Shown here in pieces: positions 23,727-53,699 of a stretch of 64,000 bases of DNA; position 1 is the first letter of the stretch; every line of letters begins with the position of its first letter. The stretch comes from a virus. The stretch covers positions 40,627-104,626 of IMG/VR virus record IMGVR_UViG_3300021963_000057. One strand, 5' to 3'. A program made the translations under genes and the position numbers. The notes under the pieces are model-generated. The model was not told the DNA's origin. It did no database searches and was given only the letters and a program-made list of their open reading frames with translations.

Positions 23727-23818
23727 GCCAGCGAGACTGGGTAGTCAGAGAGGTCTTATACACCTTTTAGCGCCAGATTAGCGTTCTTGAGTGAGTTCGA
23801 GTCTCACCGCTGGTACCA
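23727..23818 (+). tRNA. Atypical tRNA, anticodon TAT (Ile?), short D arm and long variable arm
   Basis: GCCAGCG/CGCTGGT, loop CTTATAC, T arm GTGAG-TTCGAGT-CTCAC, ACCA. Confidence 0.7.
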
Positions 23819-24867: not shown

Positions 24868-24929
24868 AGGATCGGTTCAGCAATAAACAAGCTAACTTTG
24901 GATGTCTAGCGACAAAAACGATCCTGTTG
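24868..24929 (+). ncRNA. Scaffold RNA copy 1 (Pro-like anticodon hairpin)
   Basis: AGGATCG-N3-CAGCA ... CGATCCTGTTG; inner hairpin loop TTTGGAT. Confidence 0.65.
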
Positions 24930-25339: not shown

Positions 25340-25403
25340 AGGATAGTAACAGCAACTAAAATACTTCAAACTTGTAACTTGAAAAGTAAAATCTATCCTG
25401 TTG
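25340..25403 (+). ncRNA. Scaffold RNA copy 2 (Thr TGT anticodon hairpin)
   Basis: AGGATAG-N3-CAGCA ... CTATCCTGTTG; inner loop CTTGTAA. Confidence 0.68.
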
Positions 25404-26472: not shown

Positions 26473-26573
26473 AGGATAGGTTCAGCAAAAAATTCACATG
26501 CGAATGGTTCGCAATTTGCCTTTTAAGCAAACCTTGTGGGTTCAATTCCCACTGTAAAAAAACTATCCTGTTG
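26473..26573 (+). ncRNA. Scaffold RNA copy 3 (tRNA-Lys TTT mimic without full acceptor stem)
   Basis: AGGATAG-N3-CAGCA ... CTATCCTGTTG enclosing D-like hairpin, TTTGC-CTTTTAA-GCAAA, GTGGG-TTCAATT-CCCAC. Confidence 0.75.
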
Positions 26574-27105: not shown

Positions 27106-27180
27106 CCGGCGTTAGTATAATGGATAATACAGCGGTCTTCTACACCGTGAATGTGGGTTCGATTCCTGCACGCCGGACCA
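27106..27180 (+). tRNA. tRNA-Arg (TCT)
   Basis: Loop CTTCTAC, CCA. Confidence 0.9.
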
Positions 27181-27198
27181 TTTTTTGAGGAGTTTAAT

Positions 27199-27774
27199 AT
27201 GCCATCAGTATTTCTTACAAGTGACACACACTTTGGTCACGCTGGTGTGTGTAGATTTCTCCGTGATGACGGTGTGACAAAGCTTAGGCCATGGGATAAT
27301 CCAGAAGAAATGGATGAAGAAATGGTGAAGCGTTGGAACGAAACAGTCGGGCCAAATGATAAAGTATATCATCTTGGTGATGTTGTTATCAACCGCAAAG
27401 CACTTAGCATTATGCATAGACTTAACGGTGATAAAGTTCTGATTCGTGGTAACCATGATATCTTCAAAGATGAGGATTATAGACAACACTTCCGTGAGCT
27501 ACGTGCTTATCATGTAATGAACGGAATGATTCTGTCTCATATTCCAATTCATACAGAAAGTCTTGGTCGTTTTGGTGTCAACATTCATGGACATCTTCAT
27601 GCTAACCGTGTGACTATGGGAAATGGATATAGAAGTGTAATCGACACCAGATACCATTGTGTTTGTGTTGAACAAACAGATTTCAGACCGATTCTTTTTG
27701 AGGATGTTATGAAACGAATCAAAGAAGAAGGTGGTGAGGTCGGTTTCCGTAATGGAAACGGACCTGCCATGTGA
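27199..27774 (+). CDS. Calcineurin-like metallophosphoesterase
   Basis: SDTHFGH, HLGD, GNHD, HGHLH; GAGGAG RBS. Confidence 0.92.
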   Translation: MPSVFLTSDTHFGHAGVCRFLRDDGVTKLRPWDNPEEMDEEMVKRWNETVGPNDKVYHLGDVVINRKALSIMHRLNGDKVLIRGNHDIFKDEDYRQHFRELRAYHVMNGMILSHIPIHTESLGRFGVNIHGHLHANRVTMGNGYRSVIDTRYHCVCVEQTDFRPILFEDVMKRIKEEGGEVGFRNGNGPAM

Positions 27775-28074: not shown

Positions 28075-28080
28075 AACATT

Positions 28081-28132
28081 GTGGTATATTTACAACATAC
28101 CGCTTGACTACAACAAATTTTTGTGTTATACT
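28081..28132 (+). promoter_or_regulatory. Palindromic operator plus promoter (copy 3)
   Basis: GTGGTATATTTACAAC, 7 nt, TTGACT-N17-TATACT. Confidence 0.7.
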
Positions 28133-28161
28133 ACACAGTATTGAAAGATTGAAAAGGTTTT

Positions 28162-28317
28162 AGGTTAGTTACAGCATTATTCATTAATACTGGACTGTTA
28201 GGTAACTATGGTAAATGCTGGAGGTTTCGACCTTTGAAGGTGTTTATTGAAATAGTCCTAACAAAGGTGAGTTTCGATTTTCTCACTGTAAACAAAAAGT
28301 AGAAAGCTAACCTGTTG
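28162..28317 (+). ncRNA. Scaffold RNA copy 4 (long hairpin plus T-arm-like hairpin)
   Basis: AGGTTAG-N3-CAGCA ... CTAACCTGTTG; TGTTAGG/CCTAACA, GTGAG..TTCGA..CTCAC. Confidence 0.68.
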
Positions 28318-28322
28318 TTTTT

Positions 28323-28442
28323 AGAATACTCACAGCAAACAATTTTTCCGCTTATAACGGAGAGGTTACAGGTTCGAATCCTGTTTTACGCTTCATGCGT
28401 GAATAGCACAATTGGTAGTGCGCTAAAAAATGTATTCTGTTG
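28323..28442 (+). ncRNA. Scaffold RNA copy 5 (circularly permuted tRNA-Ile TAT)
   Basis: AGAATAC-N3-CAGCA ... GTATTCTGTTG enclosing anticodon arm, T arm, loop-closed acceptor, D arm. Confidence 0.78.
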
Positions 28443-28463
28443 TTTTTTTATGAGGAGTAAGTT

Positions 28464-29891
28464 ATGTCAACTTTTGTAGATGCCGTTGTTAATCAAGATG
28501 CCCGTACCGCAAACGGTATGAAGGCTCGTAAGTCCACTGCTAATGCAGTTGTAGATTTGTTCTACAATGCAGGTGCTTCACGTGGTAAAAACATTGTGCC
28601 TGCTTTTGCAGCTGCAATGGCAGAAAACCGTGAACTCGCTTTGCGTGTTGCTGCTTGGTTGCGTGATGCTCGTGGTGGTGCCGGTGAACGTGAATCGTTC
28701 CGTACTATCTTGCGTTATTTGGAAAAGAATGACGTAGAAGCCGCAAAAGCATTGTTGACAAAGGTTCCTGAATTGGGCCGTTGGGACGACATTTTTGTAT
28801 TTGATTCTGACGTTATGAAGTCAGCAGCATTCACTATGTTGGGTGATGCGCTTCGTGCGAAGAATGGATTAGCTGCAAAGTGGACTCCTCGCCAAGGTAA
28901 ACTAGCGGCTGAAATCCGTCAGTTCTTTGGTATGTCCCCAAAGTTTTACCGTAAGTCTTTGGTTGAAATGACCAAAGTAGTTGAAACTCAAATGTGTGCG
29001 AAAGATTGGGATTCCATTAATTTCTCACACGTACCTTCCGTAGCGGCATCCCGTTACAAGAAGGCTTTTAATCGTAACACTCCAACTTATGCAGCTTATG
29101 TTGCTTCGTTGGTTAAGGGTGATAACCCTGAAGTTAAGGTTAATGCAGGTGCTGTGTTCCCATACGATGTGCTGAAAGGCCGTATCGGTGGTTACATTAA
29201 ATTCGACAAGACCGAATTGGACTTGGTGCAAAAACAATGGGAGGCTTTGCCTAACTTTGTTGGTGACGCAAACATTCTACCTTTGGTGGATGTTTCAGGT
29301 TCAATGACCTGCGCTGCAGGTGGTTATGGTTCCAAATCAGGTCTAACCTGTTTGGAAGTAGCAGTCTCTTTGGGACTATACTTGGCAGATAAGAATGAAG
29401 GCAAGTTCAAGGACACCTTCCTAACTTTCTCTGACAAACCAGAATTGTTGCACTTGAAAGGTAACATTAACCAAAAGATTGACCAAATGGTTAAATCTGA
29501 TTGGGGTATGTCTACTAACCTACACAAGGCGTTTGAAAGAATCCTTGATGTAGCAGTAAAAGGTGGCGTGCCACAAGAAGAAATGCCAGCGATGGTATTG
29601 ATTCTGTCAGACATGCAATTTAACGCTTGCGTTAGACATGATGACTCTGCTATGCAGATGATTGCACGTAAGTACAAAGAAGCAGGATATGATTTGCCAA
29701 AAGTTGTATTCTGGAACTTGAATGCCGCATACGGCAACGCTCCAGTAAAGTTCGATACTTCTGGTACTGCATTGGTATCTGGTTTCTCACCAGCAGTCGT
29801 AAAACCACTGTTGGCTGGTGACCTAGAAACCTTTACACCAGAATCTGTGATGCTTAAAACCATCATGGATGACCGTTACAAAGTATTGTGA
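28464..29891 (+). CDS. DUF2828 family, Ro60/TROVE-like protein with C-terminal vWA domain
   Basis: RDARGGAGER, GRWDD, AAKWTPR, MIDAS-like DVSGSM, SDMQF, VFWNL, VSGFSP. Confidence 0.85.
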   Translation: MSTFVDAVVNQDARTANGMKARKSTANAVVDLFYNAGASRGKNIVPAFAAAMAENRELALRVAAWLRDARGGAGERESFRTILRYLEKNDVEAAKALLTKVPELGRWDDIFVFDSDVMKSAAFTMLGDALRAKNGLAAKWTPRQGKLAAEIRQFFGMSPKFYRKSLVEMTKVVETQMCAKDWDSINFSHVPSVAASRYKKAFNRNTPTYAAYVASLVKGDNPEVKVNAGAVFPYDVLKGRIGGYIKFDKTELDLVQKQWEALPNFVGDANILPLVDVSGSMTCAAGGYGSKSGLTCLEVAVSLGLYLADKNEGKFKDTFLTFSDKPELLHLKGNINQKIDQMVKSDWGMSTNLHKAFERILDVAVKGGVPQEEMPAMVLILSDMQFNACVRHDDSAMQMIARKYKEAGYDLPKVVFWNLNAAYGNAPVKFDTSGTALVSGFSPAVVKPLLAGDLETFTPESVMLKTIMDDRYKVL

Positions 29892-53049: not shown

Positions 53050-53699
53050 AAAAATTCAACGAATACATCAACGAAGTAAAAGAACCAACAGGTGACTTAA
53101 AAAAGGCTTGTTGGACTGGTTATACTGCTGTCGGTACAAAAAAGAAAAACGGTAGAACCGTTCCTAATTGTGTTCCGGAAGAAGTTGAAATAGACGAAAA
53201 CCATATTGCCATCGCCATGGGTAAAGAGATGGATGATGAAGGTAGTATGATTATGAATCAGTTGGATCAAATGGAACGTTCCATCAACATGTTGCGTGGA
53301 GTCGTTAAGGATCCAAACATGCAAGTACCTGCATGGGTTCAGTCTAAAGTTACATTAGCAGCAGATTACATCGAAACTGTTGCTGGTTATATGTCTAGTA
53401 AAAACGAAGAAGTTGACCTAGAAGAAACTGCTGCATGGCAACGCAAAGAAGGTAAGAGTGAATCTGGTGGTTTGAATGCCAAAGGTGTTGCAAGTTATCG
53501 TAGAGAGAATCCAGGTTCTAAACTAAAAACAGCTGTCACAACTAAACCATCAAAATTAAAACCAGGTTCTGCTGCTGCAAATCGCCGTAAATCATTCTGT
53601 GCTAGAATGTCTGGTATGAAGAAAAGATTAACTTCAGCAAAAACTGCTAATGATCCAGATTCACGTATCAATAAGTCTCTACGTAAGTGGAATTGCTAA
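53046..53699 (+). CDS. Putative internal head polyprotein
   Basis: MKKFNEYINE; CWTGY..VPNCVP; AWQRKEGK..SFCARM modules. Confidence 0.7.
   Translation: MKKFNEYINEVKEPTGDLKKACWTGYTAVGTKKKNGRTVPNCVPEEVEIDENHIAIAMGKEMDDEGSMIMNQLDQMERSINMLRGVVKDPNMQVPAWVQSKVTLAADYIETVAGYMSSKNEEVDLEETAAWQRKEGKSESGGLNAKGVASYRRENPGSKLKTAVTTKPSKLKPGSAAANRRKSFCARMSGMKKRLTSAKTANDPDSRINKSLRKWNC

What the first reader, a model, noticed from the sequence alone, without database searches (positions are those of the whole stretch)
28323..28442. Circularly permuted tRNA-Ile(UAU) directly upstream of the Ro-like gene
Seen, in order: anticodon arm TCCG-CTTATAA-CGGA, AGGTT, T arm ACAGG-TTCGAAT-CCTGT, acceptor 3' strand TTTACGC, loop TTCAT, acceptor 5' strand GCGTGAA, TA, D arm GCAC-AATTGGTA-GTGC. 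This is a full cloverleaf opened between the D and anticodon arms, with the acceptor closed by a loop and no CCA. Established: YrlA-type Y RNAs have a loop-closed acceptor with T and D arms but no anticodon arm. Inference: either an uncharged mimic or a precursor matured by ligation; it could also regulate the RBS about 10 nt downstream.
Basis: partly seen in the sequence, partly recalled or inferred. Interest (0 to 1): 0.85.

Follow-up and report, generated by a model that had tools for sequence, protein, structure and literature searches.

The report
Phage Y-RNA carrying a whole-tRNA mimic
Just upstream of a phage gene for a Ro60-shaped RNA-binding protein lies a small RNA that is a complete tRNA in re-ordered, sealed (unchargeable) form mounted on a conserved docking stem; it is most likely that protein's partner RNA, a new variant of the known tRNA-mimicking Y RNAs that, unlike them, still displays an anticodon loop.

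Summary
In detail: 28323-28442 holds every arm of a cloverleaf in permuted order, with the acceptor stem capped by a 5-nt loop and no CCA. It is not a stray: it is one of five RNAs in this window, and hundreds in related phages, that share a handle (7-bp covarying stem, 3 nt, CAGCAA, cargo, A-rich linker, stem, GUU). A handle unit ends 11-28 nt before the start codon in 72 of 74 related loci. The downstream protein (DUF2828/DUF7788) models as a Ro60 ring plus vWA domain. Covariation in 20 diverse homologues supports all arms and refines the topology: the chain is opened inside the 5' strand of the anticodon stem (between nt 28 and 29), not between the D and anticodon arms. The loop keeps the tRNA signature (U33, A37, A38) while the triplet varies. 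Closest known: YrlA Y RNAs, which lack an anticodon loop. Best reading: an uncharged tRNA mimic presented by a Ro60-like particle, probably as bait or tether for a tRNA-reading factor in phage-host conflict; function is inferred. A ligation-matured true tRNA is unlikely. New variant of a known kind. Earlier notes of this scan report the same handle family on other DNA (at least 52 genomes).

The parts
28104..28132 (+). Sigma-70-type promoter TTGACT-17-TATACT with TG, likely driving both upstream handle RNAs and the Ro60-like gene
   Evidence: 10 of 12 matches, extended -10; consensus match only
28163..28312 (+). Sibling handle RNA with a 150-nt complex cargo (includes hairpin GTGAG-TTTCGATTTT-CTCAC)
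   Evidence: same stem/CAGCA/GUU frame; cargo conserved in many related loci
28323..28329 (+). Handle stem P1, 5' strand AGAATAC
   Evidence: 73 distinct P1 sequences with compensating 3' strands among units with GTT tail
28333..28338 (+). Invariant handle motif CAGCAA, 3 nt after P1; proposed docking site for the Ro60-like protein
   Evidence: (5 matches in window, 0.2 expected); analogous in position to the CGAA bulge motif of Ro60-bound Y RNAs (PMC4201824, PMC12135203)
28348..28362 (+). Anticodon stem-loop mimic: C29 C30 G31, loop CTTATAA (triplet TAT 28353-28355), C39 G40 G41 A42 G43
   Evidence: lower stem covaries; loop U33 26/29, A37 25/29, A38 28/29
28363..28367 (+). Variable loop AGGTT (nt 44-48); U48 pairs with A15
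   Evidence: 15:48 covariation (A:U 25, G:C 14, U:A 5 of 52)
28368..28384 (+). T arm ACAGG-TTCGAAT-CCTGT
   Evidence: 100% paired, 3 of 5 pairs with double changes
28385..28403 (+). Acceptor stem, 7 bp, closed by cap loop TTCAT (28392-28396); no discriminator-CCA
   Evidence: cap is TTCG in L004 and L005
28404..28424 (+). U8 A9, D arm GCAC-AATTGGTA-GTGC, G26, then C27 U28 that pair with G43 A42
   Evidence: 27:43 and 28:42 paired in 18 of 20, four to five pair types; permutation mean 3.5, max 11 against 18 observed
28425..28431 (+). A-rich 3' linker AAAAAAT, a conserved feature of the handle
28432..28449 (+). Handle stem P1 3' strand GTATTCT, conserved GTT(G) tail and T run
   Evidence: tails GTTG 95, GTTA 69, GTTT 56
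28464..29891 (+). Ro60-like protein gene (DUF2828 + DUF7788; HEAT-repeat ring plus vWA with DxSxS MIDAS)
24868..24925 (+). Handle RNA, short hairpin cargo
25340..25399 (+). Handle RNA, hairpin cargo with CTTGTAA-type loop
26473..26569 (+). Handle RNA whose cargo is an anticodon-type hairpin TTTGC-CTTTTAA-GCAAA plus a T arm, without acceptor or D arm
   Evidence: weak Rfam tRNA hit 26492-26560

Best explanation
The element is a non-coding Y-RNA-like partner of the Ro60-like protein encoded 25 nt downstream. Shown: it consists of a conserved handle (terminal 7-bp stem, CAGCAA, A-rich linker, GUU tail) and a cargo that is a complete tRNA cloverleaf in circularly permuted order, acceptor end sealed by a short loop. 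The chain leaves and re-enters the body through a nick in the 5' strand of the anticodon stem: nt 1-28 come from the 3' segment, nt 29-72 from the 5' segment. Inferred: the handle docks on the outer face of the Ro60-like ring, as stem-plus-CGAA bulges do on Ro60 of animals, bacteria and Thermus phage phiLo; the RNA is cut out of the leader of the Ro-like mRNA; the cargo folds into the tRNA L-shape and stays uncharged. Inferred function: the particle presents a tRNA look-alike, including a genuine anticodon loop, to a protein that reads tRNAs. I favour bait or decoy for a host factor that attacks or inspects anticodon loops (about 0.35), over the classical Y-RNA role of tethering a tRNA-binding enzyme to the ring (about 0.3). 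The confidence given is for the identity (Ro60-like partner RNA with an uncharged tRNA-mimic cargo), not for the sub-mechanism. The permuted order is what a junction between two tandem tRNA copies gives, as proposed for the origin of YrlA.
For: Anatomy and fold. Covariation of lower anticodon stem, T and D stems and of 27:43/28:42 on a structure-blind alignment of 20 homologues: against the all-hairpin alternative; Python permutation test. Tertiary 15:48 covariation, A14 51/52, GG in D loop 49/52, U8 in 51/52. Family: five handle units in the window, over 200 in fetched loci with 73 different P1 stems. Linkage to the gene: unit ends 11-28 nt before the start codon in 72 of 74 related loci; the same RNA type lies beside or near the homologous gene in E. 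coli phage SUSP2 and mycobacteriophage DyoEdafos and, with inverted topology, in Citrobacter phage Ci1. Protein is Ro60-shaped: pLDDT 92.8, Foldseek top 12 hits all Ro60/Rsr/phage Ro60, TM up to 0.65, E 2e-7. Rfam YrlA is the best family match. Precedent: Ro60 with tRNA-like YrlA (PMC4201824); phage phiLo Ro60 binds two upstream Y-like RNAs through a stem and a CGAA bulge (PMC12135203); a Ro60-like protein next to the tRNA genes of coliphage Bas63 counters the Ppl defence (PMC11482910). Loop is read, not just structural: in bare-hairpin cargos the loop CTTGTAA stays fixed while its stem (TTCAA/TTGAA to TACAA/TTGTA) and the handle stem change.
Against: No expression, end-mapping or binding data. 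Rfam YrlA score is half the gathering score and the published Ro-binding motif GNCGAA is replaced by CAGCAA. The protein is only about 14% identical to solved Ro60s; sequence profile hits to them are marginal (E 0.04). For the window's own sequence U27'.G43 and U28'-A42 from the 5' segment could replace C27-G43 and U28-A42, so the 28|29 nick rests on the family, and a subclass (L080 clade, L022, L138) closes the stem from the 5' segment alone. The triplet differs between near-identical relatives (TAT here, TTG in L001/L002), which could mean drift rather than function. Most of the 74 linked loci are related phages, so linkage is partly inherited synteny. No RNA ligase or RtcB was found, but the record is only 62% complete.
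Confidence: 0.72

Rival explanations
1. A true circularly permuted tRNA-Ile(UAU) gene: the transcript is circularised or ligated at the 28/29 junction, opened at the acceptor cap by RNase P and a 3' nuclease, given CCA, charged and used in translation.
For: All tRNA identity positions are present and the re-joined sequence is called tRNA-Ile(tat). [quoted passage not shown]
Against: The junction lies within a helix and has no bulge-helix-bulge motif; bacteria lack the splicing endonuclease (established knowledge). Cap is a UUCG tetraloop in close relatives. No encoded CCA, unlike the phage's tRNAs. The same handle carries cargos that can never be tRNAs. The triplet changes between near-identical phages.
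Confidence: 0.04
2. A purely cis-acting leader: the two structured elements in the 5' UTR serve only to let the Ro60-like protein (or a tRNA-binding factor) autoregulate translation or stability of its own mRNA.
For: Promoter at 28104-28132 puts both units in the leader of the gene; a unit sits 11-28 nt before the start codon in 72 of 74 loci.
Against: Three more units in this window lie 2-3.5 kb upstream among tRNA genes; in SUSP2, DyoEdafos and Ci1 the unit is downstream of the gene; no pairing with the Shine-Dalgarno sequence. Autoregulation may coexist with a trans role.
Confidence: 0.08
3. The handle is unrelated to the Ro60-like protein: it is a processing or punctuation signal (for example an RNase E or RNase III site) or a selfish repeat that spreads within phage tRNA arrays, and the tRNA-like cargo is a decaying tRNA remnant.
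For: Units are scattered through tRNA arrays and flanked by U-rich single-stranded spacers; tandem tRNAs give such junctions easily.
Against: Decay would not keep compensatory changes in four helices plus the 15:48 tertiary pair and the U33/A37/A38 loop signature across distant phages. The handle follows the Ro60-like gene in T4-like, Felix-like and mycobacterial phages.
Confidence: 0.1

Closest known systems
YrlA-type Y RNAs bound by bacterial and mycobacteriophage Ro60/Rsr (Rfam RF02553; Chen et al. 2014, PMC4201824; Wang et al. 2018, bioRxiv 10.1101/312249)
   Same: Encoded next to a Ro60-type gene on the same strand; terminal stem with a short conserved motif beside it; T arm, loop-closed acceptor-like stem, then D arm, in that order; tRNA tertiary nucleotides kept, 15:48 covaries; best Rfam match.
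   Different: Published YrlA 'lacks the anticodon loop': its anticodon-like stem runs on into the Ro-binding stem. Here a 5-bp stem with a 7-nt U33...A37A38 loop is kept and the chain exits through a nick at 28|29. Motif is CAGCAA, not GNCGAA. Score 35.7 against a gathering score of 69; Rfam YrlA does not detect the DyoEdafos homologue at all. Chen et al. describe a poorly conserved 'V' stem-loop upstream of the T arm and read it as a variable arm; it may be the same hairpin, which I could not check because figures are not held.
Yrl1 and Yrl2 of Thermus phage phiLo with its Ro60 (PMC12135203; PDB 9KOP, 9L5Y)
   Same: Phage Ro60-type protein with two Y-like RNAs encoded just upstream; 5'-3' stem flanking a bulge with a 4-nt motif needed for binding; the window's protein model matches 9kop and 9l5y (TM 0.54-0.57).
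   Different: phiLo RNAs are described as simple stem-bulge-stem RNAs with CGAA, without a tRNA-like body.
Circularly permuted tRNA genes of the red alga Cyanidioschyzon merolae and some green algae (from my own knowledge; not checked in a paper here)
   Same: 3' part of the tRNA precedes the 5' part, with a short linker joining the acceptor strands.
   Different: Those are matured through a circular intermediate made at a bulge-helix-bulge motif and yield working tRNAs; no such motif, CCA or enzyme context here.
Class I RNAs of dictyostelid amoebae (Rfam RF01414; Kjellin et al. 2021, PMC7919456)
   Same: Short covarying stem joining the ends, a conserved motif containing ACAGCAA right after the 5' strand, variable remainder, 3' end CUGU.
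   Different: Eukaryotic, 42-65 nt, own promoter element; Rfam score here 15.2 against 41.5, E 5.7, so statistically not a match; no known link to a Ro60-like protein.

Membership tests
YrlA Y RNA (RF02553) | Encoded near a Ro60-type (TROVE + vWA) gene on the same strand | tested here: met
   Stem ends 25 nt before the ATG; protein model matches Ro60, Rsr and phage Ro60; 72 of 74 related loci
YrlA Y RNA (RF02553) | T arm, loop-closed acceptor-like stem and D arm in that order, with tRNA tertiary nucleotides | tested here: met
YrlA Y RNA (RF02553) | GNCGAAN0-1G motif near the 5' end (PMC4201824) | tested here: not met
   CAGCAA stands in the equivalent place
YrlA Y RNA (RF02553) | Rfam gathering score 69 bits | tested here: not met
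   35.7 bits, E 3.2e-6
YrlA Y RNA (RF02553) | Anticodon-like stem continues into the Ro-binding stem; no anticodon loop (bioRxiv 10.1101/312249) | tested here: not met
   Closed 7-nt loop with U33, A37, A38; nick at 28|29
YrlA Y RNA (RF02553) | Bound by the Ro60 protein in cells | not testable with these tools
   needs immunoprecipitation or EMSA
Permuted tRNA gene giving a working tRNA | 3' part upstream of 5' part | tested here: met
Permuted tRNA gene giving a working tRNA | Bulge-helix-bulge or other ligation signal at the outer junction | tested here: not met
   P1 is an uninterrupted 7-bp helix set off by 17-nt and 7-nt linkers
Permuted tRNA gene giving a working tRNA | Discriminator and CCA, or a trailer fit for processing | tested here: not met
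   4-5-nt cap, UUCG in L004/L005; own tRNAs end in CCA
Permuted tRNA gene giving a working tRNA | Mature ligated, charged product | not testable with these tools
   needs RNA from infected cells
Ro60 / TROVE-vWA protein (downstream gene) | HEAT-repeat ring followed by vWA domain with MIDAS DxSxS | tested here: met
   Full-length Foldseek matches to 2i91, 1yvr, 2nvo, 9kop; invariant D276, S278, S280; Pfam calls DUF2828 + DUF7788, not TROVE
Dictyostelid Class I RNA (RF01414) | Rfam gathering score 41.5 bits | tested here: not met
   15.2 bits, E 5.7; resemblance of stem, ACAGCAA and CUG only

The most novel reading that the evidence does not exclude
The handle RNAs are a modular 'anticodon display' system: a Ro60-like ring carries interchangeable cargos, from bare anticodon hairpins to whole sealed tRNAs, each showing a particular anticodon loop, to soak up or trap host defence enzymes that cut or sense specific tRNAs; cargos are renewed by recombination with the phage's own tandem tRNA genes. 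This would give Y RNAs of this class a concrete job and explain why they sit in phage tRNA arrays.
Probability: 0.3. Interest if true: 0.85.

Novelty: new variant of a known kind. Interest (0 to 1): 0.66.

Why it matters
What the tRNA-like domain of bacterial and phage Y RNAs binds has been open since 2014. A branch of the family that keeps a true anticodon loop, in many versions and with loops conserved while stems change, points to an anticodon-reading partner and makes the question testable in cultured phages (E. coli phage SUSP2 and Felix-like phages carry the same RNA and gene, and a homologous protein in Bas63 already has an anti-defence phenotype). It also gives a natural example of a tRNA fold assembled from two strands through a nick in the anticodon stem, and an intermediate that fits the proposed origin of YrlA from tandem tRNA transcripts. 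Practically, these genes are unannotated or mis-called as pseudo-tRNAs in public phage records.

Tried and rejected
blastn of 28080-28470 against 50,697 phage records: no match, so relatives had to be reached through the protein. Rfam at gathering thresholds: only tRNAs. phmmer of the protein against PDB sequences: nothing; profile search: only marginal Ro60 hits; the fold search settled it. The search for homologous proteins listed only relatives of 82% identity or more. Pseudoknot between invariant CAGCA and UGUUG: rejected as unsupported, since the tail varies (GTTG, GTTA, GTTT) and the CCGCA variant keeps GTTG, with no compensation. A helix between the U run before nt 29 and the A-rich 3' linker: possible in the window but not kept in L059, L035 and others (read output). 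The minimum-free-energy fold's extension of the anticodon hairpin to 10 bp is not supported by homologues. Reading the hairpin as a class II variable arm: rejected, because 4-5 nt separate it from the T stem, none from the stem above it, and its loop has the anticodon signature. Origin as a recent copy of one of the window's tRNAs: best identity 49 of 72. Search for RtcB and T4 Rnl1 in the phage record: none, but the record is 62% complete and the Rnl1 control rang nowhere.

Full report
Observation. The minimum-free-energy fold returns these hairpins (z = -3.45). ARAGORN and Rfam's tRNA model do not call it, as expected for a permuted order. When I joined the two segments in tRNA order in a script, ARAGORN called a regular 72-nt tRNA-Ile(tat) (ACCA was appended for the test). 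It is not a recent copy of any tRNA in the window (best 49 of 72 identical).

Context. The window is part of a 104.6-kb, about 62% complete record of an uncultured phage with about 29 tRNA genes between 20868 and 30829. The gene that starts 25 nt after the element (28464-29891) matches Pfam DUF2828 and DUF7788. An AlphaFold2 model built on 82 diverse relatives has mean pLDDT 92.8. Its twelve best Foldseek matches in the PDB are all Ro60, Deinococcus Rsr or the Ro60 of Thermus phage phiLo, over the full length (TM up to 0.65, E 2e-7). The vWA MIDAS residues are invariant. tblastn finds homologues in 701 phage records, among them mycobacteriophage genes annotated 'Ro-like RNA binding protein' and Felix-like coliphages. 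'Ro-like' is therefore right.

A family, not a singleton. Upstream regions of 80 related IMG/VR loci showed one repeated frame: a 7-bp stem (mostly AGGNUNN), 3 nt, CAGCAA, a variable insert, an A-rich linker, the complementary strand, then GUU. A script found five such units in the window (24868, 25340, 26473, 28163, 28323). The pattern AGRWTNNNNNCAGCAA occurs 5 times against 0.2 expected (four of the five are these units, unit 28163 has CAGCAT, and 53625 was not examined). Across fetched loci there are over 200 units with 73 different stem sequences, each compensated. A unit ends 11-28 nt before the start codon of the Ro60-like gene in 72 of 74 loci. Inserts range from bare hairpins to whole tRNA-like bodies. 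Of 80 short units, 50 carry a 5-bp stem with a 7-nt loop of the form (C/U/A)U-NNN-(A/G)N.

Structure from homologues. A pattern scan of viral contigs and a covariance model built from ten close and distant copies gave 52 non-redundant tRNA-like units. They fall into two topologies: 'anticodon-open' bodies like published YrlA, and 28 bodies with a closed anticodon-type hairpin like the window's. In the second class the loop is C/A/U32, U33 (26 of 29 rows counted, one row being a false hit on real tRNAs), A37 (25), A38 (28), with 16 different triplets. The variable loop has 5 nt (21) or 4 nt (8).

The unexpected result is where the chain opens. The two nucleotides that follow nt 26 form Watson-Crick pairs with nt 43 and 42 in 18 of 29, in five dinucleotide versions. 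Permuting the 3' segments gives a mean of 3.5 and a maximum of 11 in 20,000 trials, and shifting the register gives none. On a MAFFT alignment made without any structure (A5, 20 sequences including a mycobacteriophage), 27:43 and 28:42 are paired in 18 of 20 with four to five pair types. The alternative, in which the 5' segment supplies these two pairs, holds in only 15 and 13 of 20, largely through G-U. T and D stems are 100% paired with double changes, and the lower anticodon stem covaries. The tertiary 15:48 pair covaries too (44 of 52 compatible; permutation maximum 33).

So the body is a tRNA whose nt 1-28 and 29-72 are separate strands, joined at the acceptor end by the cap and leaving through a nick in the anticodon stem towards the handle. 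In the window both versions of the top two pairs are possible (C27-G43 and U28-A42, or U.G and U-A). A subclass (L080 clade, L022, L138) uses the 5' segment alone.

Reach. The model finds the same RNA, unannotated, in E. coli phage SUSP2 within the tRNA array after the homologous gene (L201:5921-6044, 47.8 bits). It also finds it about 110 nt after the 'RNA-binding protein' gene of mycobacteriophage DyoEdafos (L202:4028-4159, 49 bits), again with the CG/CG swap pairs. Rfam's YrlA model misses the latter. In Citrobacter phage Ci1 two RNAs after the gene have the opposite arrangement: a normal tRNA outline ending in CCA-like tails, with a roughly 50-nt insert carrying ACAGCAA or UUCAGCA in place of the anticodon loop. 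One is annotated tRNA-Pseudo. The motif thus travels with the protein in three topologies.

Comparison with the literature.
- Chen et al. 2014 (PMC4201824) found YrlA next to Ro60 in over 250 bacteria and 22 phages. YrlA has T, acceptor-like and D stem-loops, a GNCGAA motif, and in many a weakly conserved 'V' stem-loop before the T arm, read as a variable arm.
- In M. smegmatis, YrlA has a 7-bp acceptor stem and is cut by RNase P and receives CCA.
- Wang et al. 2018 state that YrlA 'lacks the anticodon loop' and cite a model of origin from dimeric tRNA transcripts. The window's RNA is exactly the junction of two tandem tRNA copies trimmed at nt 29 and nt 28, with the anticodon arm of the first copy retained.
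- The phiLo study shows a phage Ro60 binding two upstream Y-like RNAs through a stem and a CGAA bulge (PMC12135203).
- The PhageMaP preprint reports that a Ro60-like protein next to the tRNA genes of coliphage Bas63 counters the Ppl defence, and guesses that some 'tRNAs' there are Y RNAs (PMC11482910).
- I found no paper or Rfam family describing the CAGCAA handle or an anticodon-bearing YrlA.

Mechanism. Shown: the anatomy, the covariation, the gene linkage and the Ro60 fold. Inferred: that the handle docks on the protein, that the RNA is released from the leader transcribed from the promoter at 28104-28132, and that the sealed mimic is not charged. The loop looks functionally read. In the commonest bare-hairpin cargo the loop CTTGTAA is fixed while its stem and the handle stem change with compensation. 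This points to a partner that inspects anticodon loops. I favour a decoy or bait for a host tRNA-targeting factor, and rank next the classical tether role. Against a working permuted tRNA: no CCA, UUCG caps in relatives, a nick inside a helix with no ligation motif, and sibling cargos that cannot be tRNAs. Against RBS control: GAGGAG lies 13 nt beyond the stem, with no complementarity.

Verdict. This is a new variant of a known kind (YrlA-type Y RNA with a phage Ro60-like protein). Earlier notes of this scan describe the same handle family in at least 52 other genomes. I used them as leads only. The 28|29 nick differs from one earlier description that placed the opening between the D and anticodon arms.

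Noticed in passing
window 26473-26569: Handle RNA whose cargo is an anticodon-type hairpin TTTGC-CTTTTAA-GCAAA (Lys UUU-like loop) followed by a T arm GTGGG-TTCAATT-CCCAC, with no acceptor or D arm; Rfam calls it a weak tRNA (36.3 bits at 26492-26560).
   Followed up: partly
window 24868-24925 and 25340-25399: Two short handle RNAs between tRNA genes; the second carries TTCAA-(A)CTTGTAA(C)-TTGAA, the Thr UGU-like loop that recurs in many related phages while stems change.
   Followed up: partly
window 28163-28312: Handle RNA with a 150-nt cargo conserved across many loci (CTGGAG...TTTGAAGG and hairpin GTGAG-TTTCGATTTT-CTCAC); no Rfam match; fold and role unknown.
   Followed up: no
window 53625-53640: Fifth match to AGRWTNNNNNCAGCAA (AGATTAACTTCAGCAA) far from the tRNA island; not checked for a closing stem or coding context.
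   Followed up: no
window 23727-23818: ARAGORN calls a 92-nt tRNA-Ile(tat) with a long extra arm that Rfam's tRNA model does not report; may be another tRNA-like RNA rather than a decoding tRNA.
   Followed up: no
window 27151-27774: Calcineurin-like metallophosphoesterase gene inside the tRNA island (Pfam E 3.7e-5); enzymes of this fold heal RNA 2',3'-phosphate ends in bacterial Pnkp, so it could belong to a tRNA repair or protection set.
   Followed up: no
L081:4391-4505 and L081:4512-4625 (Citrobacter phage Ci1, OR515478.1): Two tRNA-shaped RNAs after the DUF2828 gene with normal topology and a roughly 50-nt insert bearing ACAGCAA / UUCAGCA in the anticodon loop; the second is annotated tRNA-Pseudo-AAC.
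   Followed up: partly
L201:5921-6044 (E. coli phage SUSP2) and L202:4028-4159 (mycobacteriophage DyoEdafos): Unannotated handle RNAs with whole-tRNA cargo (loops CTGGTAA and ATGATAA) near the homologous genes; useful cultured systems.
   Followed up: partly
window 28324-28439 against Rfam RF01414: The handle resembles Class I RNAs of Dictyostelium: short covarying terminal stem, ACAGCAA right after it, variable middle, CUG(U) at the 3' end. The Rfam score is not significant (15.2 bits, E 5.7). Whether dictyostelids have a DUF2828 protein was not testable here.
   Followed up: partly
closed-loop units in L001-L202: Position 36 of the displayed triplets is mostly U (15 of 29) or A (8), always followed by A37 A38, the contexts that in real tRNAs are the sites of t6A37 and i6A37 modification; this may only reflect A+T-rich sequence.
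   Followed up: no
L080, L050, L133, L180, L197: In this clade the acceptor cap is a conserved 6-8-nt loop containing TTGGTC, unlike the short variable caps elsewhere.
   Followed up: no
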